Numbered from the stretch's first letter, positions 1,286-16,393 are shown. The stretch is DNA of 32,000 nucleotides from Mycoplasma mobile 163K (GCF_000008365.1 NC_006908.1:745080-777079); one strand, 5' to 3'. The notes: generated by a model not told the origin, from the sequence alone. Numbers and translations are program-made.

Positions 1286-2026
1286 CTAGTTTCTACCAGG
1301 AAATCCTGTAACTACAATAGTTTTTTCGAGTATTCTTCCGTTTTTAGAACCTATTAAGACAACACTTAATCTTCCTTCACCAAAATGCACACTACTCTGT
1401 ACATATCTTAATGAGAATTGAACTCCATTTTGAGGATTAGGAGTATTAACAATTTTATCAATACTTCATACATCATTTGATCAAGCTGGAGTTTTTCCAA
1501 AATCAGTTATACTTAGACTTGAAATTGTGTTTAATTCATTTTGAATATCTCTATCTACTGCAATATTAATTTGCTCTTGAATTTCTTCTGGACTAAGAAC
1601 TCTAAACCCATTTACAATAATTGTTTTTTCTTGAGTTAAATCACCAATAGAACCTACAAGAGTTACAACAACAAATCCACTTGTGTCACTACCACTAGCT
1701 GTTTCACTAATTTTTATAGAAAAACTTACACCATTAGAAGAAACTGGCACTTTAATAAAATCTGTAATATTTTGATTATTTACTTGTGAAGGTAAAGTAT
1801 TTTTTGCAACTTCAAAAATTTCTAAAGTATTAATTTTTTCAAGTTCATTTCCTAAAATATTTTTTTGTTGCTCAATTGTGATAATAGGATTAATTGGACC
1901 AACTGGACCTACTTCTTTAGGGGTTTTTGTTGCTACAATGCTTACTGGAACTATAATAACTGTGCTTCCTAAAACTGCTGCTGCTGTTCCTAAAAATAAA
2001 TTTGCTTTTTTCATAATAATGTACAC
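1286..2026 (-). CDS. Membrane-anchored surface protein, paralogue A (246 aa): N-terminal TM anchor, Pro-rich linker, one ~100-aa repeat module plus C-terminal module
   Basis: Track ORF 1481..2026 extended through TGA (1481-1483) to TAG at 1286-1288. N-terminus MKKANLFLGTAAAVLGSTVIIVPVSIVATK has no lipobox Cys. Modules carry TLPSxV ... NGVxF ... I(V/T)(N/D/T)GF, as I recall for the mycoplasma Lipoprotein_17-type domain. Confidence 0.8.
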
Positions 2027-2256
2027 TTTCTATATAAATAATTATATAATTACTAAAAATTTTTGCTTTTAAAATAATGTTTTTAACTATCCTTTAAAAG
2101 GATTTTAAAATTTAAGCTTATTTATATTGTCTAAATTTTAAAATTTTTATTTGTAATTAAAATAACAATAAAATTATAATTCTTTTATATTTAAATAGTT
2201 AAAATATTTATTTTTTTCTTATAAATTCACCTTTTAAGATTTGATACACTAAATAA

Positions 2257-2288
2257 AAAATTACAGCAAGAATTTTTGCTGTAATTTT
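2257..2288 (-). terminator. Rho-independent terminator downstream of paralogue B
   Basis: Stem aaaattacagcaa / ttgctgtaatttt with loop gaattt, flanked by A and T runs, about 20 nt past the stop at 2310. Confidence 0.7.
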
Positions 2289-2309
2289 TTAAATTAAGAT
2301 TTTGTGTTT

Positions 2310-3386
2310 TTAAACAGGGAATCCTGTAACTACAATAGTTTTACTAATTGTTCTTCCATTTTTAGAACCTGATAAAATAATACTAAATCTTCCTAAACCA
2401 AGATGAACACTACCATCTACATATTTTATTGAGAATTGAACTCCATTTTTACTTTGCGGAATATTAACAAGGCTTGTAGCGTTTCCTGATAAAACAGCAG
2501 TTTGTCAAGCAAGATTATTTGCAAGAGATGTTTTTTCTAAACTTGAAATTGAGTTTAATTCATTTTGAATATCTCTATCTGCTGCAATATTAATTTGTTC
2601 TTGAACTTCTTCTGGGCTAATAATTCTAAAACCATTTACAATAATTGTTTTTTCACTAGTTAAATCGCCAATAGAACCTGCAAGAGTTACAACAACAAAT
2701 CCACTTGTGTCACTACCACTAGCTGTTTCACTAATTTTTATAGAAAAACTTACACCATTAGAAGAAACTGGCACTTTGATAAAATCTGTAATATTTTGAT
2801 TATTTACTTGTGAAGGTAAAGTATTTTTTGCAACTTCAAAAGTTTCCAAAGTATTAATTTTTTCAAGTTCACTTCTTAAAATATTTTTTTGTTGTTCTTT
2901 AAGTTGAGCTCTTTCTTGCTCTGTTTGGAATCCATCAATAGTAATTTCTTTTTGAACAATAACATTTCCAATAGAACTAGTTACAATAATTACTAATTCT
3001 CCGGTAACATCATTTGCTCCATTTGGTTTTAAAGACACTTCAAAATTTACACCATTCACATTATCAATTTGAATAAAATCTTTAAGATTAGTTTCATTTA
3101 CTTCAGATGGTAAAGTATTAGGAATCTTATCTACATTAAGCATGATATTATTAGGTAAATTAGTTGTGCCAACAACTATAATACTTGGAATATTTCCTAA
3201 TTCTTTTTCTATTTGTTCTTTAATTTGTTGCTCAATTGGACTAATAGGATTAACTGGATCAACAGGACCTACTTCTTTAGGAGTTGTTTTTGTTGCTGCA
3301 ATACTAGCTGGAACTATAACAACTGTACTAACTAAAGTTGCTGCAGCCCCTGCTAAAAATAAATTTACTTTTTTCATATTTAACAC
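2310..3386 (-). CDS. Membrane-anchored surface protein, paralogue B (358 aa): two repeat modules plus C-terminal module
   Basis: Track ORF 2505..3386 extended through TGA (2505-2507) to TAA 2310-2312. SD-like agaaggtg and tataat (3400-3405, minus strand) lie upstream. Long stretches are near-identical to paralogues A and C. Confidence 0.85.
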
Positions 3387-3738
3387 CTTCTCTACTATTA
3401 TTATATCATTATTAATAAGAACTTTTTTTAATACAAGATTTTTAACAATGTTTTAAAATAGTTTTTAAATTTAGAATCTTTATACTAATAATCAAAATAT
3501 ATTTTTTGAATTAAATTATAAGAATATTTGCTTTTTGTTAAATTTATTATTTTCTTAAAATAAAATCTAAAAATTTTTATGTAATTAGAGCTACTCACAA
3601 AATTTCAATTAGTAATAATCAAGATATTTCTACTATTAGATTTACATAAAATCTTATTTAATAAGAAAAAATATATTAACTTTTTGAGTAAAAATTAAAA
3701 GTATTTTCAAGATCAAAAAAATTTGATATGTTCATTAA

Positions 3739-3768
3739 AAAATACAACAATAATTTTTGCTGTATTTT
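3739..3768 (-). terminator. Rho-independent terminator downstream of paralogue C (one stem mismatch)
   Basis: aatacaacaa / ttgctgtatt with loop taattt, then a T run. Homologous in position and sequence to the hairpin at 2257-2288. Confidence 0.6.
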
Positions 3769-3789
3769 TTAAATTAAGATTTTATGTTT

Positions 3790-5166
3790 TTAAACAGGAA
3801 ATCCTGTAATTTCAATAATTTTACTAATTGTTCTTCCGTTTTTAGAACCTATTAACTCAATTCTGAAATTTCCTAGACCAAAATGAACACTTCCATCTAC
3901 ATATCTCAATGAGAATTGAACTCCATTTTTGCTTTGTGGAATATTAACAAGGCTTGTAGCATTTCCTGATAAAACAGCAGTTTGTCAAGCAAGATTATTT
4001 GCAAGAGATGTTTTTTCTAAACTTGAAATTGAGTTTAATTCATTTTGAATATCTCTATCTGCTGCAATATTAATTTGTTCTTGAACTTCTTCTGGACTAA
4101 GAGCTCTAAACCCATTTACAATAATTGTTTTTCCTTGATTTAAATCACCAATAGAACCTACAAGAGTTACAACAACAAATCCATTTGTATCGCTACCGCT
4201 AGCTGTTTCACTAATTTTTATAGAAAAACTTACACCATTAGAAGAAACTGGCACTTTGATAAAATCTGTAATATTTTGATTATTTACTTGTGAAGGTAAA
4301 GTATTTTTTGCAACTTCAAAAATTTCTAAAGTATTAATTTTTTCAAGTTCACTTCTTAAAATGTTTTTTTGTTGTTCTTTTAATAATTGAGCTCTTTCTT
4401 GCTCTGTTTGGAATCCATCAATAGTAATTTCTTTTTGAACAATAACATTTCCAATAGAACTAGTTACAATAATTACTAATTCTCCAGTAACATCATTTGC
4501 TCCATTTGGTTTTAAAGATACTTCAAAATCTACACCATTAGAAGAAACTGGCACTTTGATAAAATCTGTAATATTTTGATTAGTTACTTCTGAAGGTAAA
4601 GTGTTTTTTGCAACTTCAAAAATTTCTAAAGTATTAATTTTTTCAAGTTCACTTTTTAAAATGTTTTCTTGTTGTTCTTTAAGTAATTGGGCTCTTTCTT
4701 GCTCTGTTTGGAATCCATCAATAGTAATTTCTTTTTGAACAATAACATTTCCAATAGAACTAGTTACAATAATTACTAATTCTCCGGTAACATCATTTGC
4801 TCCATTTGGCTTTAAAGATACTTCAAAATCTACACCATTTACATTATTAATTTGAATAAAATCTTTAAGGTTAGTTTCATTTACTTCAGATGGTAAAGTA
4901 TTAGGAAACTTATCTACATTAAGTATGATGTTATTAGGTAAATTAGTTGTACCAACAACTATAGTGCTTGGAATATTTTCTAGTTCTTTTTCTATTTGTT
5001 CTTTAATTTGTTGTTCAGTTGGATTAATAGGATTAACAGGCCCAACAGGATTAACAGGTCCTACTTCTTTAGTATTTTGGTTTGCTACAACACTAAGTGG
5101 AACTATAACAACTGTACTTGCTAAAGCTCCTGCTGTTACTCCTAAAAATAAATTTGCTTTTTTCAT
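3790..5166 (-). CDS. Membrane-anchored surface protein, paralogue C (458 aa): three repeat modules plus C-terminal module
   Basis: Track ORF 3985..5166 extended through TGA (3985-3987) to TAA 3790-3792. gagaaggtg SD and tataat upstream. Contains an internal 300-bp tandem repeat. Confidence 0.85.
4231..4839. repeat. Intragenic 300-bp (100-codon) tandem repeat, two units, inside paralogue C
   Basis: tacaccattagaagaaactggcactttgat... occurs at 4231 and 4531, and tacaccatt again at 4831. The units differ by only a few substitutions when read directly. Confidence 0.85.
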
Positions 5167-5488
5167 AATATTACACCTTCTCTAATATAATTATAGCATT
5201 ACTAAAAATTTTTTATGATTTAAAATTAGTTCTTGTTTGTTTTTAAAAATATAATATAACTTTTAAAAAACTTAGAAAATTTGATATTAATGTTTAATTT
5301 ATAGTTTGTCTTGCATGTATTTTTTCACAACAAAAACAATTAAAGTTTTTAAAAAATAGATAGCAAATTTCATCTAATTAAAATGTTAATTCATCTTAAT
5401 CTTATTTTGAATCAACTCAAATTTTAAATTTAGAGAATTAGAGAAAAAGGGACTAAAAGAATTCAAAAAAATATATAAAATTATAATT

Positions 5489-7225
5489 ATGAATCTTGAA
5501 GAAAAATATGAAAATAAAACAAAAGAAAAATTTCAAACAAAGAAAATTCAAATAAATGTACATTCTGAGGAAGAATATTTAAAAAAGCAAAAAGAATTTC
5601 TTGAAGAATTGGAACTTAATTGAGAAAAATTTGAAAAAGAGAACAAATTTCAATTTGATTATGACAACAAATATAAAGAAAAAATGAAAGATGAAAAATT
5701 AGGTTTTTATGAATTTGAGCTTAGTTTTAAAAGATCTCCATTGACAATTATTCATGCACCTTGAGGAACCGGAAAAACTTATTTTTTAGATTCTCTTGTA
5801 AAAAATTTTGTAGACAAAAAATTCGAAAATACAAAAATTGAAAGAATAATTTTTATCGATTTATGAAAATATTCTTATAGTGAATCTATAGATTTAGATA
5901 TTTCTAAGTCTTTTTACAAAAATGCTCCAATGTCTAGAAGAAAATTTAGGCAAAATGCCACAAAAGGGTTAGGATACGTTTCAAAATTCATTAATAATGC
6001 CTTGAATATTGTTGAAGCCACACCTGGTATTCCTAAACTAAACGGATTAAGTCAAGTACTAGATTTTAGTAAAATAGGTGATTATTTTTTGAAAGAAAAA
6101 GTTGTAAAACTTTTTTCTGTTGATGAAACAAGAAAATTAGTGATTCTTGACAATATTGAAAGACTAGGAGAAAATATTTGAGAAATATTTAAATTTATTT
6201 TTGAATTGCAAAGTTTAGAAAATAATATTTATCTATTACCAATGAATAAACAGTTTTTAATACACAAAAAAAATGAAAGTGGTGGAGAATATCAAATTCA
6301 AAAATTCATTGATATTTCTCCTTTTGAATTTAAACAAAACTATTTGGGTATTTTAACAAAATTTTTTCAAAGAGAAGGTAAACATTTTGAACATCTTAAA
6401 AATGACTTAAATAAGATATTAGAAATGGAAATAGAAGGACAAAAATTATCTATTAGAGAATTGGAACAAAATTTAAATTTAAACAAAGATTTATTGTTTA
6501 AGCAAGAAAGTAGATATAAATTTCTAAAAGCTTTTAACGAAACTATTTGAAATAATTGAAATTGGTTAAAAAAAATAATAAAAGAAGATTTTGAATTCAT
6601 TTTAAAAAATGAATTGGATTGAGCAAACAAAGTAGCTACAGTTAAAAATGAATACTTTTTAAATGATTTTTTTGTTTTTAATGATCACAATGATTTTTTT
6701 GCAAATTCATTTAATCGTTATTGTTTTGCAAATTCAAAAAATAATTTTTACAAAAAATTAGAAAAAGATATTTGTTCGCTTGACAATCTTAGATCTAATA
6801 ATTTCAATGAAGGGTTCAAAAAACTAGGAGAAATTTTAAATTCATATTTAGAACTATCAAATGAACAAGAAATTTCTATAAATGATTTTTTAGAAAGTAA
6901 ATGAAATGAAAATTTTAAATATGAAGAAATTATAATTAAAATCAATCATCTTACAATTTTAAAAAATAATTTCCAAGAAAAATGACAACAAAAAGATGAA
7001 GAAATTTCAAAAAGAAAATTTGAAATAGGAGAGTATTTTTTTGATGAAATTTTGAAGTATTTAAATAAATTGAAAATCCTTTTTGAAGAAAGAAATGAAA
7101 ATATTTCAAAAGAATTTGCTAATTCAAAATGAGAGAAAGACTTTTGAATAAAAAAAATTGAAGATAATAAAATAAAAGAAAAAATTACTGATAATGAGCT
7201 TTTTAGTATTTTAGAAAGTATTTAA
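5489..7225 (+). CDS. KAP-family-like P-loop NTPase (578 aa)
   Basis: Track ORFs 5930..6181 and 6206..6550 are in the same frame as ATG 5489. I translated codon by codon to TAA 7223-7225 and found only TGA interruptions. Walker A in KAP style IIHAPWGTGKTYF. Walker B-like KLVILDNIERL (compare DDLDR). Confidence 0.65.
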
Positions 7226-7321
7226 ATGTTAAAAATTAAATAAATTTAAATTATAGTTGCAATGAATTAAATTATATTAGATTCTATATATTAAAATACA
7301 TTTAATTAATGTAAAATAATA

Positions 7322-7441
7322 AAACTTTTTGAATTTTTTTCTGGAATTGGCGCAACTCATAAAGCTTTAATTAATAACAATCAAAAATTTTCTACTGTAG
7401 GAGTAAGTGAATGATTTACTGAAGCTATTATTGGCTATTAA
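7322..7441 (+). pseudogene. Remnant of a C5 DNA cytosine methyltransferase (N-terminal ~39 codons only)
   Basis: Translation KLFEFFSGIGATHKALINNNQKFSTVGVSEWFTEAIIGY* matches C5-MTase motif I (F-x-x-F-S-G-I-G-x) and the following sE-x-x motif region. TAA TAA lies immediately upstream. There is no start codon and no catalytic PC motif downstream. Confidence 0.6.
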
Positions 7442-7553: not shown

Positions 7554-8675
7554 TTATTTAATCAATAAATTATTATGAAATTTTAAATAAAATTTTGTTT
7601 CATCATTAAGTTTACTAATCGAAGGCTCATCTAATTTTAAATTATAAATTTCCAATTTATTATGAATTACTTTAGCAGAAATTAAAAATCCTTTTGAATT
7701 AAAAGATATATAGTGTTTATCAAATAGCGCATCGTGATTTGGGCATAGTAACAGACCATTGTTATAATTTCTAATTTCTTTATGTTTTTCAGATTTGCCT
7801 AATGATTTGTCTTTTACTATATTTTCAACTGATTTTATATGTGAAGCAACTAGTAATTCTTTTTCTGAAATATCGCAATATAAAATATCGCATTTTGAAG
7901 ATGCTTTTAAGAGACTATTTCTAAAATAAACTCTAATTGAATTTATATTTTGAAATTGTTTTAGTTTTAACTCTTCCATTTCATCTTCGTTATTATTTTC
8001 TTCTTCAGCTTCAAATAATTTATCAATTAATTTATCGAATTCTTCATTTTTATTATCATCAAAAAAATTTTGTGCTTCTTCTAAAAAAAATATATCTAAA
8101 TATTTAATCATGCTAGAATGAACAATATATGTGTTTTTTGTCCTGTTTAACTTTCAACTTTTATTATCTATTACTTCTTTTATATCTTTAAGAGATACCA
8201 TTCTAGAAGTGTTTTTCCTTCCTTTTGTCCTATTCTTGTAAGTTTTAATATTCGATCTTTTCACAATAAAATAAACGACATTTTTGACATCTAATTCAAT
8301 TGTTGAATCTAATTTTTTTAATAACGGAATGTATCCATTCATTACAATAAAATTTTCTTTTTCTTCAATAAACTTATTTTGTAGATATTTTCTACCAAGA
8401 GGAACTTCAATTTTTTGACTTTCTTTTCCTAATCCTCCATCATCTGAATGTTCAATAAAAATTTTATAATTTACATTTAAGAAAGAAATTGCGAAAAGTT
8501 TTGAAAATGAATTTTGAAAAATTTCTTTTTCAATTTTTGGATCTCTTTCTTTCAAAATATTAAAAAGATGATTGAAAAGTTCTTTTTCTCCTCCATATCC
8601 AAAAAAGGGGTGAACTTTATCGTCAAATAATTTCTCTATTTCAGAATTGATTATGTGATAGCGTACTTTAGACAT
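7554..8675 (-). CDS. HNH nuclease fusion protein (373 aa): unknown N-terminal domain plus C-terminal HNH_2-type domain
   Basis: Track ORFs 8154..8675 and 7554..8111 are in frame and joined by a single TGA (8154-8156), with a true TAA at 7554-7556. C-terminal motif ...SSKCDILYCDISEKELLVASHIKSV...NNGLLLCPNHDALFDKHYISF is the ASHI ... NG.LL ... H..FD pattern of HNH_2-type nucleases. Confidence 0.75.
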
Positions 8676-8802: not shown

Positions 8803-10125
8803 GTGAATAATTTTAATAATGAAGACGACGATGAAAAATTAAATGAAAATTTTGTTCCTAAATCTCAAGGTCTAAAGGATTTTTTAGAACAGAAGAAGAA
8901 TTTTCAATTCGTAATTCCTATATATCAAAGAAACTACAATTGAGAAATTAGTAAACAAGTAAAAAAATTTATGGAAAGTTTTGAACATTTGTTTAAAGAA
9001 AAAAATGAAGAACATTTTTTAGGAACCCTAATTTTGATTTTAGGAAAAAAAGAGGAAATTCAAGAGTTATTTGTAATTGATGGTCAACAAAGATTAACAA
9101 CAACATTTCTTGCTTTTTTTGCAATTAGAAATCTTTTAAACGAAAATGCTAATGTTGAAAAATCTTTATTAAAAAAAATAAAAGAAGAATTGAATAAGAT
9201 TTTTTTCTCTAATAAAAAGAATCTCCTAAAAATTCATCCCGCAGTTGAGAGAGATAAGGTTTTTGAAAAAATTACTAGAAATTCTAAAAAAGAAGATTTT
9301 AACTCAGATGAAAAAACAACAAATATCTTTAAAGCATATGAATATTTCAAAAAGGAATTAAAAGGCTATATAAAAAATAATGAAGAAGAGTTGATGAAAA
9401 TTTTAAGAACTTTTAATAGAATGATTGTTGTTTCAATAGAAGTTAGAAAAAATGTAAATCAACAGAAACTTTTTGAAAGTATAAACTCAACTGGTGTTAA
9501 GCTTACAAATTTTGATTTAATAAAAAATTTTCTATTAATGAAACTTGAAACTAGAAAGGAGCAGGACCAAATATATAATGAGTATTGAAAAATATTGGAA
9601 AAAAACGTAACTATTTCGTCAGAAAAAAATCAAAGAAAATATAAATTAAACTTAAAAACTGATGAAATTGAATTAGAACATAAATTTAAAGGAAATGATT
9701 TTTTTAAATACTTTTTGTCAATTAAAGAGCATAAACATTATAGCGAAGAGAAATTTTATAATTCATTTAAAAAATGATTCGAAAATAAAGGAGAGGATTT
9801 CAATATTAAAAATGCTTTTGATGAATTAAAAAATTATTCTAATCTTTTCAACCAAATTTTTAAAAAAAGTAAAAATCCTAAAATTGAAGAAGAGTTAATA
9901 GAATATAGAAAAATGAATATTTATGCTGCTTCTCCTTTAATAATAGAAATGTTAAAATGGCATGATGATAAAGAAATATCGGCCAATTTATTTAATGATA
10001 TGTTAAAAGTTATAAATACTTATCTTGTAAGAAATGATATTTGTAATAATGGTGATAGATTAAAAAATATTTCCCAAACATTTCTTAAAATTTTAGAAGA
10101 ATTAGAAAATGTGAAAAAAATCTAA
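8803..10125 (+). CDS. DUF262 (GmrSD-like, ParB-type NTPase/nuclease) N-terminal part of a frameshifted gene
   Basis: GTG 8803 sits right after an in-frame TAA, with gagagg 12 nt upstream. Motifs FVIPIYQRNYNW and VIDGQQRLTT are the DUF262 signatures. TGAs at 8944, 9586 and 9775 read as Trp. The frame ends at TAA 10123-10125, immediately after an A7 run. Confidence 0.75.
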
Positions 10126-10163: not shown

Positions 10164-10697
10164 TTGAAGAGTTTTTTAAATGGAAATGAAAGAATAAGTA
10201 AAAATTCTATTGCGGATATAAAATTACCTAATGATAGAGAATTAGAAACTATTATCCCGAAAATTAATGCTTATCATAAAGAAGGTAAAGTTACCAAGGT
10301 TATTTTGCAAAAAATTGAAAAAGATGTAGTTTTGAAAAGAAAAAATAAAGGTGTTTTGGATCTAATCTATATAGAATCGAAAACTTTAGAAATTGAGCAT
10401 ATATTTCCACAAAACCCACAGAAAATATCTGATACGGTCGAAAAAGAAAATGGAAATGAAAATAACCATATAAATCAAATTGGAAATTTAATATTAGTTG
10501 AATCAGAAATAAATCAAGAACTTTCAAATAATATTTTTGCAACTAAAAAGGAAACACTAAAAAAATTTAAAGAAAAAGGAAAATTATTTATCTCTAATAA
10601 TGAAATTTTAAATGAAAATGAATGAACAAAAAAACAAATTGAAAAAAGAACTAAAAATATCATAAAAAAAATAAAGAAACTTTATCCTTATTTTTAA
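10164..10697 (+). CDS. DUF1524 (His-Me finger nuclease) C-terminal part of the same frameshifted GmrSD-like gene
   Basis: This frame is open from 10089. Motifs LEIEHIFPQN ... INQIGNLILVESEINQELSN match the DUF1524 pattern (EHI.P ... GNL.L ... N). TGA at 10623 read through to TAA 10695-10697. The start given is the track TTG; the reading frame really continues from the upstream part. Confidence 0.7.
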
Positions 10698-11002: not shown

Positions 11003-12901
11003 TTACTTTTCAGGTTTAACAGTATGACTTTTTAAGTGATTAGATAAATTAATATCTTCTGCATAAACAAAAATTCCTTTTGTTCCTCTTGTTAAATTAA
11101 CAAATAACCTATTTAAAAAATAATGAAAATTAAGATTTTCTTTTTCTTTTTTTACAGAATCAGATTTACCTTTTAAAGACCAAACTTGAGATGACATTTC
11201 TCTCATTTCCAATTCGCCAATATTAACTTTCAAATTATTAGTTGTTTTGTCTCAATAAAACATTTTGGGAATGTGAACAAAAACATAATCGAATTCGACT
11301 CCTTGAACTGTATTAAAATAAGCTATATATTCACTTCCTTTTTTATCTAAATTGAAATTTTTAACAAGAGATAAATTTCTCAATTGAGTTGATATTTTTG
11401 TATGAGGACTATTTTTTTGAAATTTCTCTAATCATTCACTATTTGGATTTCATGCATATCTGTGATTTCCTATTTTTACAGATTTTATAGGCATTCCTCT
11501 TTCATCAAGTTCATCTAAATTTCATGTTTGAGTTCAAAAAGATAACATTCTAACGTTGAATTCTTCATACATGCTTTGATATTTACTATTGAATTCTTCA
11601 GATTCTAAAACTTCAAAAGAAAAATAATTCTGGATGAAAAAGTCTTGACCATTGTCTATTTTAAAAATTCAATTTTTTAATCACTCTGTGTATGTGGAAT
11701 CTCCACCATTTCTAAATTGTTCCTCCAAGTCAAAAATTTCAAAAGTAAAATTTGATTTCTTAGCTATTTGAATAATTTCTTCTCTCAAGATACCTTGTTT
11801 GTTTATAACTTGAAAGTCATCAATTAAACAAATAATAAAATTAGCATTTTTAAATAAAGTCTGATAAAAACCACCGGCTGTTATATTGCTTCTTGCTTTA
11901 TGAGCTTCATCAATAATTACAACATCATGTTTTGCGTGCATGTCAGCTCCACCTATGAATTCAACTAAATTGTTGTTTTTTAATTGTGATTTAGCTGCTG
12001 CTCTAAATTCAGGACCTGGAAGCATTAATTTAACACTTTTGTTATGATTTGACATAATATATCCAAGTAATTTAAATGCTATTACAGTTTTCCCAGAGCC
12101 TGCAGCACCTGAAATAAAAACAACATGCTTTTTTGTTTCAAATGATTTTAAAAAAGTTTCTTTTAAGGAGTAGAAAGCTAAACATTGTGAGCTAGATAAT
12201 TTGATATTTTTGAACTCTTCTTTTAAATGGGATATAAAATTTTGAGAAGGTTTGTACTCTAGTTTATCTAATTTTACTAAATCATCGTGCGAAATAGGCT
12301 TGTTAAAAATTGATTTTAAATAATCAACAAAAATATTTGAAGTGCTTGAAGTGTAAGTGGTTACGTTTTCATTAATTGATTTATATTTTATATCTTCGAG
12401 CGGATTTTTGTTTTCAAATTCAAAATTAGGTAAAAAAGCAACAGATTCTACATTAAATATTTTGTTTATATAATCATACTGATTGACTAAATCTCTTTTG
12501 TAATTTAGAGCTTCAAGTCCAGGATGCAAAGATTTTTTGTAAATTGTATAAATATTTAATAAATACGAATTTTCTATCAAAGAAATTTTGCTTCACCCTT
12601 TTAATTCTATTATTAAAATTGTCTTTCTTTCATTATTATTTCCTACGATAATTACATCAATTCTCTTTTTAGATGAAGGGACTTTGTATTCAAGCAAAAC
12701 ATATTGGCTGTTTTTATGTTCTAAGTCATTAAAATAATTAGAAACCTTTCTTAAAGTGCTTCTTCATGATTCTTTTTCCTTTTCAGAAACTGAATAACCT
12801 AATTTACTGCGCATTTCACTTTCAATTTTAATAACAATTGTTCCACTATTTTGGCTACAATCTTCTATAAAGCCTTTAATTGTATTTTCATATATAATCA
12901 T
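11003..12901 (-). CDS. DUF2075-type protein (632 aa): N-terminal PD-(D/E)xK-like nuclease module plus P-loop SF1 helicase-like ATPase
   Basis: ATG 12901 to TAA 11003-11005, hand-translated across eight TGA codons with no TAA or TAG. N-terminus LEYKVPSSKKRIDVIIVG...ILIIELKGW (E-x-K nuclease-like). Walker A ISGAAGSGKT. Walker B VVIIDEAHK. C-terminal LTRGTKGIFVY. Confidence 0.7.
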
Positions 12902-13141
12902 ATAATTTGACACATTTTACCATAAAGTGATTTTTATTTTAATAAAACAATAACTTTAAAATTAATAATTTACAAATAATCAATTATTTAATTAATATTA
13001 AAAATTTTATAATTGATAGATGAGAACAAATGGTTTGAAAAAAATAACAAAAAAGAAATATAACAAAGAACACAACGAATCATAAAAAAATTTTTCTAAA
13101 AAAAATACAAAATTCTAAAAAACTAAATTCAACATTTAAAC

Positions 13142-13318
13142 CTATTATTTTATACTATAATAAAAATGCTAATTTTCTGCTTAGGGGGCAAATATGTATC
13201 GTAAATACTCAGATGGAATAATTGAAGTAATTACAGGTCCTATGTATAGCGGTAAAATTGAAGAATTAATTAAGAGAATTAAAATTTTGCAATTTGCTAA
13301 TATTAAAACTTTAATTGT
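13142..13318. repeat. Direct repeat copy 1 (177 bp): duplicated tdk promoter, RBS and first 125 nt of tdk
   Basis: Identical to 14735-14911 except one substitution (t at 13258 versus g at 14851). The offset is exactly 1593 bp. Confidence 0.9.
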
Positions 13319-13340
13319 AAATAAAATTCTTGTAAGTTAA
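13194..13340 (+). pseudogene. Truncated thymidine kinase fragment (tdk-prime, 48 codons)
   Basis: MYRKYSDGIIEVITGPMYSGKIEELIKRIKILQFANIKTLIV then unrelated NKILVS*. The P-loop GKS is changed to GKI by the single repeat mismatch. Its TAA overlaps the stop of the convergent HNH gene within GTTAAC. Confidence 0.85.
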
Positions 13341-14665
13341 CTATTTTGTTTTCATTTTTTGAAAAAAGTTTCTTTGTGTATTTTAAGAAATGGTTTTATT
13401 GCTTCTAATTTTTTAAATGATGGTGTTTTGACATCTAAATTATAAATTTTTAGCTTTTTACTAAATTCTTTTGTAGTTATTAGCATATAATTTTCATCAA
13501 AAGAAATTATATGTTTGTCAAACAAAGCATCATGATTTGGACAAAGTAAAAAACCGTTATTAGAATTTGATATTTCATTTGATGCTTCTGTATGATTTAA
13601 ATTCTTGTCGTTTTTTATTTGATCAACAGATTTAATATGCGATGCGATTAGAATTTCTTTATCTTTAATTTTACAATACAAAATTTCGCATTTAGATGAT
13701 CTTTCTAGTAATTTTTTTCTAAAATCTAACCTCAATTTGTTTTCTTTTTCAAGTTTAATCACTGTTTGTTTTACAAATTCTGGTGCGATATTTTCGATTG
13801 AAATTTCTTCATTTTCTATTTTTTTATTTGTTTTAAGGTAGAGACTATTGATAATCTTTTTTTCTTGCTTTTGATAAGAAAGTTCTTCTTGATTTGTCAT
13901 TTTAATAAGAACACTGTTTTTAAAATTTAACAAATTATTGTACATTTTATCTATGATTTCCTCTAATGAAAAACTTTTTAAAATTAACTCACGAGAAACT
14001 TTGTAAGTTTTTATAAAATTAGCTCCAAATATATCTATATTTTTTATGTTTTTTTTCATTGGAAAATACTCATAAGAATTAAAAATGTCAAATCTTTCTT
14101 CAAATTTTTCTTCAAATCTTTCTTTTGTTTCATGTCTAAATAAGGATATGAACAATGAAAAACCTAAATTTTTTTGATATTTTGAAGACGAAATGGAAGA
14201 TTCTATCAAAAGATCTATTAAATAATTAGTGAATATGTTTCTATTTTCGACTAATTCAAAAAATTTAGAGGTAAATAAAAATGAAGAATCAGAAATGCCT
14301 TTTATTAAACCAAAGCTTATGAAAATATTTAAATATTGAGTTAAAGTTCAATTAGATGCTTCTTCATTTGATGATGGTGTAATATTATGAGAATAAACTT
14401 TGGCTCCATCTTTTAAAGATAATTCCAATTTAAGTTTATATTTTCCTGAAGGCTCACTATATTTTTTTAAATACATTTCTTCTTTATTAATTTCGATTTC
14501 TTTTATTTCCTCAAATTTTTTCAATAAAGTTTCGATTTTTATTTTTATATCTGAACCTAGTTGCCAAATTTTAGATTGCTGTTTTTGATAATTAGAATTA
14601 GAATGTAATTTTTTTTGCAAATAATAACTATTTAAAATAAATTCGATTTTTTCATATACTGACAT
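13337..14665 (-). CDS. HNH nuclease fusion protein, paralogue 2 (442 aa): unrelated N-terminal region plus HNH_2-type C-terminal domain
   Basis: Track ORFs 14348..14683 and 13352..14209 are joined in frame through TGA 14348-14350 (the 14209 TTG is an internal Leu codon). TGA 13352-13354 is read through to TAA 13337-13339. Likely start ATG 14665 after aaagagg. C-terminus ...SSKCEILYCKIKDKEILIASHIKSV...NNGFLLCPNHDALFDKHIISF aligns with 7554..8675. Confidence 0.75.
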
Positions 14666-14734
14666 ATTTTTTACCTCTTTCAAATAATTTATTCATAATA
14701 GATATTATCCCAAAAATCAAAACTACATCTAAAT

Positions 14735-14911
14735 CTATTATTTTATACTATAATAAAAATGCTAATTTTCTGCTTAGGGGGCAAATATGTATCGTAAATA
14801 CTCAGATGGAATAATTGAAGTAATTACAGGTCCTATGTATAGCGGTAAAAGTGAAGAATTAATTAAGAGAATTAAAATTTTGCAATTTGCTAATATTAAA
14901 ACTTTAATTGT
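14735..14911. repeat. Direct repeat copy 2 (177 bp), the functional tdk promoter and 5-prime end
   Basis: See copy 1. Contains tataat at 14749-14754, the SD-like agggggc, and ATG 14787. Confidence 0.9.
14749..14754 (+). promoter_or_regulatory. Putative -10 box (tataat) of tdk, duplicated at 13156-13161
   Basis: tactataat lies 33 nt upstream of ATG 14787, followed by the SD-like agggggc. No experimental support. Confidence 0.4.
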
Positions 14912-15389
14912 CAAGCAAAAATTTGACACAAGATTTTCTCATAATGAAATTGTGTCTCGTTCAGGAACTAAATTAAATACTATTGTTGCATCTAATGTTG
15001 AAGAGATTAAAAAAGTTTGGAATAATACTTATAAAGCAATTGCAATTGATGAAGTGCAATTCTTTGACAAAGATATTATTAACTATATTGACGAATTAGC
15101 CTCAAAAGGAATTAGAGTTATCATTTCAGGCTTAGACACAGATTTTGCTAGAAAACCTTTTGGTATTATGCCGGAACTTTTAGCAATAGCTGATGATGTT
15201 TTAAAACTTAAAGCTGTTTGTTTTAGTTGTAAAAATGCCGGAACTCATACTTTTAGAATAACTAATGATAAAGATCAAAAACTATTAGGAGATACTGAAT
15301 CATATCAAGCAAGATGCCGTAAATGTCATCTTGAAGGTGAAGAGCAAAAAATCCAAATGGATAATCTAAAATTAAATTTATCACTGTAA
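14787..15389 (+). CDS. tdk: Thymidine kinase
   Basis: GPMYSGKSEELI P-loop, AIDEVQFF Walker B, C-terminal Zn ribbon C-x-x-C ... C-x-x-C (CFSC...CRKC). 200 aa. Confidence 0.95.
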   Translation: MYRKYSDGIIEVITGPMYSGKSEELIKRIKILQFANIKTLIVKQKFDTRFSHNEIVSRSGTKLNTIVASNVEEIKKVWNNTYKAIAIDEVQFFDKDIINYIDELASKGIRVIISGLDTDFARKPFGIMPELLAIADDVLKLKAVCFSCKNAGTHTFRITNDKDQKLLGDTESYQARCRKCHLEGEEQKIQMDNLKLNLSL

Positions 15390-15454
15390 ATAGCAATTTA
15401 TATGATAAATTTTTTTGGTATAATATAATTTATTGTAGAAAATTAGGAGTTAAA

Positions 15455-16393
15455 TTGAATATAAATTATAACAATAAGAAAAGTTTAGGTTATAACAAAC
15501 GAAACAATCGTAGTAATTTTCATACTGAGCGTGCTTCTAATGATTGAAGTTGGTTTTCAGATGCAATAAATAATGAGATTAGCAAAAGAAAAAAACTTAA
15601 GAAACTTATTGTTTTATCTTTAGTTTTTTGAATATTAATTATTACAATAGTTTTTAGTCTAGCAATTACTTATATAATTAGCCCTTTGGGCATTCCTGGA
15701 ACAATTGAAAATACAGGAAATGAATTTGAAACTAATAATCTAAAATTTAATATTCAATTGGGTATTTCAATATTTTTAATTACTCTTTTATTTCTTTTTT
15801 GTTTTATTGTAGTTGTTTTAAATGTTATTTCAGGTATTACAATTTTAGCTTCTGATTGAATTCAAGAAAAAGCTCAATTGTCAAAAATCTTCTATGGATT
15901 TTTAACAATTTTTGTGGCTAGTTTAATTGCAACATCTTTATTTTTAAAATTGATACCAAAATATTATCAAAGAAATTATAAAAATCCATTGGCTCAAAAT
16001 AGTGATGTTAATATTATTAAAGCAAGACAAAAAATTAAAAATTTTGCAATTTTAACAGCTTTTTTGGACACAATATCTGTATTGTTGCTTATTGTAATTG
16101 TTTTACCTTTTACTTTTTTAATTTTAAATCAAAGAATGGTATTTAGTTTTTCTACAACTACTTTTATTATTTTGGGAACAATGCTAGGAAGTTTTGTTTT
16201 AATTTCAATTATTTTAAATATTATTGTGTCTTATTGAATTTTTACAACAAAATGAAATAGTGAAAAAATCAATAAACAAAAACTATTATGAGCTTTTGTT
16301 ACTCTTTTTCTATATGGACCAATTTCAGCTTTAATTTTTATTACTTATATTCCTAAATATAATTTTTCACCATATCTAAGAAAATTAAATTAA
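15455..16393 (+). CDS. Hypothetical polytopic membrane protein (312 aa)
   Basis: TTG 15455 lies 6 nt after aggag, with tggtataat upstream. Track ORF 15878..16237 extended in frame through six TGA codons to TAA 16391-16393. Several hydrophobic helices. Confidence 0.6.

What the first reader, a model, noticed from the sequence alone, without database searches (positions are those of the whole stretch)
13142..14911. 177-bp direct repeat duplicating the tdk promoter and 5-prime end brackets the second HNH gene (1593-bp unit)
Segment 13142-13318 equals 14735-14911 apart from one base. The repeat contains the tdk -10 box, the RBS and codons 1-42. The left copy yields a dead tdk fragment (P-loop GKS changed to GKI, then 6 foreign codons). 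The repeats enclose the 442-aa HNH gene on the opposite strand. The right boundary of homology is sharp, and the left boundary decays gradually over about 25 nt. This architecture is what a single-crossover (Campbell-type) integration of a circular molecule carrying a tdk fragment would leave. It would also result from a nuclease-gene insertion into tdk repaired by duplication. It also predicts precise excision by recombination between the repeats. The duplicated promoter now fires toward the 3-prime end of the HNH gene, and the two stop codons overlap in the palindrome GTTAAC at 13336-13341. This could generate antisense transcription across the nuclease gene.
Basis: seen in the sequence. Interest (0 to 1): 0.7.

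Follow-up and report, generated by a model that had tools for sequence, protein, structure and literature searches.

The report
Nuclease gene insertion duplicating tdk start
In Mycoplasma mobile, a 1.4-kb restriction-type nuclease gene sits between two near-identical 177-bp copies of the thymidine kinase promoter and gene start; this matches a known kind of scar ("insertion with long target duplication"), it leaves the kinase gene intact, and it is real but not a new kind of system.

Summary
Window 13142-13318 and 14735-14911 are identical at 176 of 177 bases and lie 1593 bp apart. Each copy carries the tdk -10 box, the ribosome-binding site and codons 1-42. The left copy is a dead 48-codon stub with the P-loop changed from GKS to GKI. 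The right copy heads an intact 200-aa thymidine kinase gene.

Between the copies lie 1416 unique bp. They hold one self-contained gene on the minus strand, which is 442 aa when TGA is read as Trp. Its C-terminus is a restriction-type HNH_2 nuclease domain, and the first ~300 residues are nearly orphan.

The window is Mycoplasma mobile 163K. Two independent Logan contigs end exactly 30 nt inside the repeat copies, so the junctions are not a 2004 assembly artefact.

The left edge of the repeat decays (16 of 23 flanking bases match in register; empirical p about 5e-4). The right edge is sharp. This asymmetry fits one homologous exchange plus one illegitimate join, by a circular or a linear intermediate. 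A tandem duplication followed by a deletion is not excluded.

The closest known kind is "insertion with long target duplication" of restriction genes (Nobusato 2000; Furuta 2010). No empty-site genome was found. Excision, a circular form and antisense transcription remain untested.

Verdict: a new member of a known kind, of modest interest.

The parts
13119..13141 (.). Left flank of the left repeat copy, with decayed similarity to 14712-14734
   Evidence: 16/23 in-register identity, empirical p about 5e-4. The repeat finder extends the family to 13119-13326 at 95%.
13142..13318 (+). Left repeat copy (R1): tdk -10 box (13156-13161), ribosome-binding site (13182-13188), ATG 13194 and codons 1-42
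   Evidence: 176/177 identical to 14735-14911.
13194..13340 (+). Dead tdk fragment: 48 codons, P-loop GKS changed to GKI (13258 T), then 6 foreign codons and a stop
   Evidence: Translation. Pfam TK profile positions 1-36 only.
13319..14734 (.). Unique 1416-bp insert (21.6% GC) holding only the nuclease gene and its expression signals
   Evidence: No terminal inverted repeats. No tRNA or Rfam match. The independent contig L024 equals 13289-14764.
13337..14665 (-). HNH2: a 442-aa restriction-type HNH_2 nuclease (P0001, annotated HNH endonuclease of Mycoplasma mobile). The N-terminal ~300 aa are nearly orphan.
   Evidence: PF13391, E 2e-11. 100% identical to P0001. Active-site columns conserved. 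C-terminus matches VcaM4I and TagI. Only one full-length homologue among 1.8 billion representatives.
14674..14733 (-). Candidate HNH2 expression signals inside the insert: TTTAGA (14733-14728), 18 nt, TG-n-GATAAT (14712-14704), and ribosome-binding site AAGAGG (14679-14674)
   Evidence: Consensus scan and pattern positions. These are consensus matches only.
14735..14911 (+). Right repeat copy (R2): promoter -10 box (14749-14754), ribosome-binding site and codons 1-42 of the working tdk
14787..15389 (+). Intact thymidine kinase gene (200 aa)
   Evidence: PF00265, E 6e-52, profile 2-176 of 176. 100% identical to M. mobile thymidine kinase P0121.

Best explanation
This is the scar of one recombination event. 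The event placed a self-contained, restriction-type HNH nuclease gene cassette (1416 bp) at the 5' end of the thymidine kinase gene, at the edge of a defence-gene island in Mycoplasma mobile 163K.

The incoming DNA most likely came from a genome in which this nuclease gene lay divergently upstream of tdk, so it carried the tdk promoter and first 42 codons. One side joined by homologous exchange within that tdk segment. The natural end of homology upstream of the promoter gives the fuzzy left edge. The other side joined illegitimately, linking tdk codon 42 to a point 18 nt beyond the nuclease stop codon. This gives the sharp right edge.

The intermediate could have been a 1593-bp circle (Campbell-type integration). 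It could equally have been a linear fragment (homology-facilitated illegitimate recombination). Both give L-R-insert-R-tdk.

The outcome is a promoter-bearing but dead tdk stub on the left and an intact tdk with its own promoter on the right, so the salvage enzyme survives the insertion.

Shown: the anatomy, the intact tdk, the restriction-type nuclease domain, the asymmetric edges, and the independent read support. Inferred: the direction (insertion rather than internal duplication), the donor arrangement, and the defence role of the nuclease.
For: - Repeat of 176/177 bases flanking a single gene.
- The insert has its own promoter-like site and ribosome-binding site and nothing else.
- Asymmetric edges: left flank 16/23, p about 5e-4; right flank not significant.
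- Intact tdk and a dead stub.
- Independent contigs break exactly at the repeat edges.
- Restriction-type nuclease: HNH_2 domain, VcaM4I/TagI fold, PADLOC REase_II.
- Defence-island setting: a GmrS/GmrD pair, a NERD plus SLFN-g3-helicase protein, and a second HNH_2 gene.
- The closest relative found has a single tdk with no stub in the 415 bp upstream.
- The same architecture is documented for restriction genes, including a solitary HNH mcrA. In those cases the repeats often span a start codon so that the target gene stays intact (PMC2853133).
Against: - No empty-site or donor-type genome was found, so the direction of the event is inferred.
- No HNH_2 gene lies next to tdk in any relative examined.
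- The 16/23 flank similarity could instead be microhomology used by a deletion.
- The insert's GC content (21.6%) is not clearly foreign.
- A restriction nuclease arriving without a methyltransferase needs a special explanation: it may be modification-dependent, inactive or silenced.
Confidence: 0.55

Rival explanations
1. Purely intragenomic origin. HNH2 already lay upstream of tdk. An unequal exchange made a 1593-bp tandem duplication of [HNH2 + tdk start], with its joint at 13318|13319. A later deletion between the similar 23-mers (13119-13141-like and 14712-14734) removed the upstream nuclease copy.
For: Tandem duplications are the commonest spontaneous rearrangement (general knowledge). 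The 16/23 similarity lies exactly where such a deletion joint would be. The insert's composition is like its surroundings.
Against: It needs two events where one suffices. The deletion would have had to end precisely at the repeat edge. No relative shows HNH2 beside tdk.
Confidence: 0.22
2. Nuclease-driven self-insertion. The restriction gene behaves as a selfish element, as in Kobayashi's proposed life cycle. A double-strand break or long staggered cut in tdk was repaired with the cassette, and fill-in created the 177-bp target duplication.
For: Restriction genes are flanked by long direct repeats more often than average genes, and breakage was proposed as the common cause (PMC2853133). The insert carries no other mobility gene.
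Against: A staggered-cut model predicts two sharp edges and no similarity between 13119-13141 and 14712-14734, yet 16/23 bases match. No activity or target-site data exist. The nuclease domain is not of the homing type.
Confidence: 0.1
3. The stub is retained because it is useful. Its promoter reads into the 3' end of the nuclease gene, and convergent or antisense transcription restrains a potentially toxic orphan nuclease. This concerns maintenance, not origin, and it can coexist with the other explanations.
For: The -10 box and ribosome-binding site are intact in the stub, and no terminator-like site lies in 12700-15600. Antisense and convergent promoters regulate EcoRI and Eco29kI (PMC3874152). 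The only full-length homologue sits beside a probable C5-methyltransferase, which HNH2 lacks. The other HNH_2 gene in the window also has a ~42-codon stub (a probable methyltransferase N-terminus) pointing at its 3' end.
Against: There are no expression data. One mismatch in 177 bp is equally explained by a recent event. Promoter-like matches in this AT-rich DNA are no more frequent than in shuffled sequence.
Confidence: 0.1
4. Assembly artefact, or a free 1593-bp circle wrongly placed in the chromosome.
For: A k-mer graph cannot tell L-R-I-R-T from L-R-T plus a circle made of I and R.
Against: The finished genome places both copies, and they differ at one base. Two independent contigs reproduce the L|R, I|R and R|I junctions, and contig L024 was seen in two samples. 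The 1.6-kb unit has no replication function.
Confidence: 0.03

Closest known systems
Insertion with long target duplication of restriction(-modification) genes (Nobusato et al. 2000, Gene 259:99; Furuta, Abe and Kobayashi 2010, NAR 38:2428, PMC2853133)
   Same: A restriction-type gene unit with no transposase or integrase is flanked by long direct repeats of host sequence (30 to about 420 bp in the published cases). The repeats span a translation start so the target gene stays intact. The published set includes a solitary HNH (mcrA) gene with 384/412 repeats.
   Different: This case is in a Mollicute, which is not among the taxa listed there. The insert is a single R-type gene of the HNH_2 family. 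No empty-site genome is available. One edge of the repeat shows decayed homology that hints at the mechanism.
Campbell-type single-crossover integration, and homology-facilitated illegitimate recombination (for example PMC3240628)
   Same: One homologous exchange plus one non-homologous joint yields an insert bracketed by a duplicated homologous segment. If the carried fragment includes the promoter and 5' end, one truncated gene copy and one intact copy result.
   Different: No vector backbone, replication function or site-specific recombinase is present. Neither the circular form nor the donor has been observed.
Modification-dependent HNH restriction endonucleases VcaM4I (6yex) and TagI (6ghs)
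   Same: The C-terminal HNH_2 nuclease domain matches (phmmer E 2e-6; Foldseek E 1e-5 and probability 0.91). Like them, HNH2 is a solitary gene without an adjacent methyltransferase.
   Different: No SRA, EVE or other known reader domain was detected. The N-terminal ~300 aa have essentially no relatives and were modelled poorly. The one full-length homologue is linked to a probable C5-methyltransferase, which suggests a Type II origin instead.
Antisense or convergent-promoter control of restriction genes (EcoRI, Eco29kI; review PMC3874152)
   Same: A promoter faces into the restriction gene from its 3' side.
   Different: Here the promoter is a duplicated housekeeping promoter (tdk), and nothing has been measured.

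Membership tests
Insertion with long target duplication (restriction-gene linked) | The insert contains a restriction and/or modification gene homologue | tested here: met
   HNH_2 PF13391, E 2e-11. PADLOC REase_II, E 2e-8. Annotated HNH endonuclease.
Insertion with long target duplication (restriction-gene linked) | Flanking direct repeats longer than 30 bp, of high identity, unique in the genome | tested here: met
   177 bp at 176/177 identity. There are only two copies in the 32-kb window. The rest of the genome was not available.
Insertion with long target duplication (restriction-gene linked) | Insert shorter than 20 kb with no transposase, integrase or phage genes | tested here: met
   The 1416-bp insert holds one gene. 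There are no terminal inverted repeats, no tRNA, and no phage match.
Insertion with long target duplication (restriction-gene linked) | A related genome has an empty site with a single copy of the repeated sequence | not testable with these tools
   No second M. mobile genome was found. The best tdk relatives are 62% (genome set) and 78% identical (Logan contig L025). L025 has a single tdk and no stub in the 415 bp upstream, but its neighbouring genes differ. An exact-pattern metagenome scan found nothing.
Campbell-type integration of a circular molecule | The duplicated homologous segment brackets the integrated DNA | tested here: met
Campbell-type integration of a circular molecule | A circular form exists, or a replicon or recombinase is carried | not testable with these tools
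   The insert has no replication or recombinase gene. A circle cannot be told apart from the integrated form in a k-mer graph.
Homing endonuclease gene | Homing-type nuclease, sitting in an intron or intein or free-standing in a phage, inserted precisely without a long duplication | tested here: not met
   The domain is restriction-type HNH_2. The only structural matches are restriction enzymes VcaM4I and TagI. The insert is flanked by a 177-bp duplication, and there is no intron-like RNA.
Insertion sequence or transposon | Transposase, terminal inverted repeats, short target duplication | tested here: not met
   There is no transposase domain and no inverted repeat at the insert ends. The duplication is 177 bp.
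Type II restriction-modification system | A cognate methyltransferase gene lies next to the nuclease gene | tested here: not met
   No methyltransferase lies next to HNH2. Homologue P0007 does have a probable C5-methyltransferase 48 bp downstream. That methyltransferase has no detectable M. mobile relative.
Type IV (modification-dependent) HNH restriction enzyme | HNH nuclease fused to a modified-base reader domain, with cleavage dependent on modification | tested here: inconclusive
   The nuclease domain matches. The N-terminus has no family match and a low-confidence model, with pLDDT mostly 30-70. Activity cannot be tested here.

The most novel reading that the evidence does not exclude
The 1593-bp unit is a minimal, recombinase-free mobile restriction cassette. 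It carries a piece of an essential host gene (the tdk promoter plus 42 codons) as its integration handle. It can therefore pop out as a circle and re-enter by host recombination without killing the host. The leftover tdk promoter also supplies antisense restraint, which lets an orphan nuclease persist without a methyltransferase.
Probability: 0.06. Interest if true: 0.7.

Novelty: new member of a known kind. Interest (0 to 1): 0.3.

Why it matters
This is a clean, very recent-looking example of a defence nuclease gene being added next to an essential gene without disrupting it. It comes from a minimal-genome bacterium that has no obvious mobile-element machinery at the site. The unequal edges of the repeat give a rare mechanistic hint for "insertion with long target duplication", whose mechanism is still unsettled: they point to one homologous exchange plus one illegitimate join. 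The 177-bp repeats also predict a simple, testable instability, namely loss or amplification of the nuclease gene. For M. mobile genetics, this is a locus where the host's own recombination has demonstrably acted.

Tried and rejected
- **Default ORF calls (table 11):** these split the nuclease gene into 285-aa and 111-aa pieces. Re-calling with genetic code 4 gave the 442-aa gene.
- **Phage origin:** there is no DNA match in the phage set and no relative in viral contigs.
- **Empty-site search:**
  - The genome-collection scan with tdk gave at best 62% identity.
  - The exact-protein look-up of tdk and of the stub found nothing.
  - The closest tdk relative (78%, L025/L026) has different neighbours, as does the next one (L027).
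  - An exact 34-nt pattern from the repeat gave 0 hits in metagenome contigs.
- **Defence genes next to tdk in relatives:** tblastn of the island proteins against all fetched loci found none beside tdk.
- **Gapped local alignment of the repeat flanks:** not significant. Only the in-register, ungapped comparison at the left edge is significant.
- **N-terminal domain of HNH2:** the full HMMER scan of 1.8 billion representatives found only one full-length relative. The AlphaFold model is poor in the N-terminus, and Foldseek matched only the C-terminus.
- **Methyltransferase partner:**
  - The partial methyltransferase gene next to P0007 has 5 homologues, none from M. mobile.
  - tblastn of three methyltransferases against the window found nothing near HNH2; it found only a stub near the other HNH gene.
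- **RNA elements, tRNA and terminators in the region:** none found.
- **Look-up of the DUF2075 protein:** The contig was reached through P0002 instead.
- **Other repeat-flanked genes in the island:** none found.

Full report
**Identity of the window.**

The window is 24% GC and uses TGA as a sense codon. The nuclease protein between the repeats is 100% identical to an "HNH endonuclease" of Mycoplasma mobile carried on a 777,079-bp contig (P0001). The thymidine kinase is 100% identical to M. mobile thymidine kinase (P0121). The window is therefore from M. mobile 163K. All gene calls below use genetic code 4.

**The observation.**

- Segments 13142-13318 and 14735-14911 match at 176 of 177 positions and lie 1593 bp apart. 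The only difference is 13258 T versus 14851 G, which leaves perfect blocks of 116 and 60 bp.
- Each copy carries TATAAT (13156/14749), TAGGGGG (13182/14775), the ATG, and codons 1-42 of tdk.
- The right copy continues into a 200-aa protein that matches Pfam TK end to end (E 6e-52).
- The left copy continues for six unrelated codons to a stop at 13338-13340, and its P-loop reads GKI instead of GKS. It still matches the first 36 positions of the TK profile.
- The stub's stop codon overlaps the stop codon of the minus-strand gene within GTTAAC at 13336.

**Is it an assembly artefact?**

Two contigs assembled independently by Logan from run SRR29904084 match the window exactly.

- One contig covers 5141-13171 (L032). 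The other covers 13289-14764 (L024), and it was seen in two samples.
- Each ends exactly 30 nt inside a repeat copy. This is what a k=31 graph does at a repeat.
- Together they reproduce the left-flank-to-repeat, insert-to-repeat and repeat-to-insert junctions.
- A k-mer graph cannot by itself exclude a chromosome with one copy plus a free 1593-bp circle. However, the finished genome places two copies that differ at one base, and the unit has no replication function.

I put the artefact reading at about 3%.

**What lies between the copies.**

- The 1416 unique bases (21.6% GC) hold one gene, 13337-14665 on the minus strand. It has a ribosome-binding site (AAGAGG, 14679-14674). It also has a promoter-like site with an extended -10 (TTTAGA, 18 nt, TG-n-GATAAT; 14733-14704), all inside the insert.
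- There are no terminal inverted repeats. No transposase or integrase domain, tRNA or Rfam family is present.
- Residues 327-390 are an HNH_2 domain (PF13391). The invariant columns of an alignment of 40 family members (H343, N370, H378, D379 and others) are all present.
- The only solved structure found by sequence is VcaM4I. The AlphaFold model is confident only from about residue 300 onward. Foldseek matches only VcaM4I and TagI there. Both are modification-dependent restriction enzymes.
- The first ~300 residues are nearly orphan. A full HMMER scan of 1.8 billion representatives found nothing below 1e-30 other than the protein itself, and found one full-length relative (P0007, 30% identity).
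- P0007 comes from the same sample as the closest tdk relative. It is followed 48 bp downstream by a probable C5-methyltransferase gene with an SPPCESWSG motif (PF00145, E 0.0025 on a 95-aa fragment).
- No methyltransferase lies next to HNH2. That methyltransferase has no detectable M. mobile relative.
- HNH2 is therefore a restriction-type nuclease, not a homing-type one. Whether it behaves as a Type II orphan, as a Type IV enzyme, or is inactive is open.

**Setting.**

Upstream of the locus lies a run of defence-type genes:

- a P-loop protein (5489-7225);
- a second HNH_2 gene (7554-8675, minus strand), 54% identical to HNH2 over the nuclease domain;
- a GmrS/GmrD pair (8803-10125 and 10164-10697);
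- a NERD plus SLFN-g3-helicase protein (11003-12913, minus strand).

Downstream of tdk lie housekeeping genes. So tdk marks the edge of a defence island, and HNH2 is its outermost gene. None of the other island genes is flanked by comparable repeats.

**The edges.**

- To the left of the repeat, 13119-13141 and 14712-14734 match at 16 of 23 positions in register. Random pairs of 23-mers from the window reach this in about 5 per 10,000 trials. Allowing for my choice of length, p is roughly 0.005.
- Identity falls to background by about 40 nt. Gapped local alignment of the wider flanks is not significant.
- To the right, 5 of 8 bases match, which is not significant.

**Mechanism.**

Write the locus as L-R1-I-R2-T. 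R2|T is simply tdk, and I|R2 is the nuclease gene's upstream region meeting the tdk promoter.

The simplest history needs one homologous exchange and one illegitimate join.

- DNA from a genome with the order I-R-T (nuclease divergently upstream of tdk) recombined with a genome of order L-R-T.
- The homologous side ends where L-type and I-type sequences cease to be alike, just upstream of the tdk promoter. This gives the fuzzy edge.
- The illegitimate side joined tdk codon 42 to a point 18 nt past the nuclease stop codon. This gives the sharp edge.
- A 1593-bp circle integrating by a Campbell crossover and a linear fragment integrating by homology-facilitated illegitimate recombination give the same product. 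I cannot tell them apart.
- Because the carried tdk segment includes the promoter and the start codon, the event leaves one intact tdk. This would be required if tdk is essential in this organism, which is an inference I did not test.

I give this family of explanations 0.55.

The main rival is internal, at 0.22. It proposes a 1593-bp tandem duplication of I+R, followed by deletion of the first nuclease copy using the 16/23 similarity.

A staggered-break or nuclease-driven insertion (0.10) predicts two sharp edges and fits less well.

**Comparison with known systems.**

Restriction and modification genes flanked by long direct repeats of host sequence, with no other mobility gene, were described as "insertion with long target duplication" (Nobusato 2000; Furuta, Abe and Kobayashi 2010, PMC2853133).

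- Published repeats run from about 45 to 420 bp. The published set includes a solitary HNH mcrA gene.
- Those authors note that the repeats often span a start or stop codon, so the target gene stays intact.
- Three of the four defining features are met here.
- The fourth, an empty site in a related genome, could not be tested. The best relatives are 62% identical and 78% identical. The 78% relative has a single tdk with no stub in the 415 bp upstream, but its neighbouring genes differ. An exact-pattern metagenome scan found nothing.
- That paper does not mention M. mobile or any Mollicute case.

I therefore class this as a new member of a known kind.

**Consequences.**

- Recombination between 116-bp and 60-bp perfect blocks should delete the nuclease gene and restore a plain tdk locus. 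It could also amplify the unit. This follows from general knowledge of RecA-dependent recombination and was not observed here.
- The stub keeps its -10 box and ribosome-binding site, and no terminator-like site lies in 12700-15600. Transcription into the 3' end of the nuclease gene is therefore plausible.
- Antisense and convergent promoters do regulate EcoRI and Eco29kI (PMC3874152).
- Promoter-like matches in this AT-rich DNA are no commoner than in shuffled sequence, and there are no expression data.
- With only one mismatch in 177 bp, the event is either recent or the copies are being homogenised.

**A parallel noticed in passing.**

The other HNH_2 gene in the window also has a ~42-codon stub of another gene pointing at its 3' end. 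Window 7313-7438 (+) encodes a probable C5-methyltransferase N-terminus (motif I, FSGIG). The support is tblastn E 0.003-0.05 and a Pfam match below threshold. Its full-length relatives sit beside intact methyltransferase genes. That gene looks like the survivor of a decayed restriction-modification pair. Whether the resemblance to the tdk stub means anything is unknown.

**Verdict.**

The kind of event is already known, but this instance is apparently undescribed. Interest is modest at 0.3.

Noticed in passing
window 7313-7438 (+), between 7225 and 7554: A probable C5-DNA-methyltransferase N-terminal stub (KLFEFFSGIGATHKAL...VGVSEW...) with no start codon and a stop after about 42 codons. It is convergent with the first HNH_2 gene (7554-8675, minus strand). 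That gene's full-length relatives P0003 and P0004 sit beside intact PF00145 methyltransferases, so this looks like a decayed restriction-modification pair whose nuclease gene survived. Support is weak: tblastn E 0.003-0.05 and Pfam E 0.12.
   Followed up: partly
window 8803-10125 (+) and 10164-10697 (+): GmrSD_N and GmrSD_C are encoded as two separate ORFs in different frames. The literature treats this M. mobile pair as a heterodimeric GmrSD that was probably acquired horizontally (PMC4619093).
   Followed up: partly
window 11003-12913 (-): A 636-aa protein with a weak NERD match at the N-terminus and a strong SLFN-g3/DUF2075 helicase domain (E 6e-73). PADLOC gives a PDC-S41 hit to the N-terminus. 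It is a candidate defence gene immediately left of the tdk stub.
   Followed up: no
window 1286-5228: Three paralogous minus-strand genes with signal-peptide-like N-termini (246, 358 and 458 aa) share 160-300-bp repeat blocks at 69-97% identity. They look like a variable surface lipoprotein family and were not examined further.
   Followed up: no
L031 (Logan SRR26596557), 62-1300 and 1349-1633: The only full-length relative of HNH2 (P0007, 30% identity) is followed by a probable C5-methyltransferase gene. It comes from the same sample as the closest tdk relative (L025, 78% aa). An uncultured relative of M. mobile therefore seems to carry the complete restriction-modification version.
   Followed up: partly
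window 13140-13112 (-) and 14733-14704 (-): Minus-strand promoter-like sites sit at equivalent positions just left of both repeat copies: TTTAAA-17-TAGAAT and TTTAGA-18-GATAAT. This suggests the decayed 23-nt similarity may be part of a shared divergent promoter region. These are consensus matches only.
   Followed up: no
window 5489-7225 (+): A 578-aa P-loop protein (weak AAA_22 match, no PADLOC hit) lies at the far end of the defence-gene run. A KAP-type NTPase lies near the HNH_2 homologue in locus L029. Any relationship between the two was not tested.
   Followed up: no
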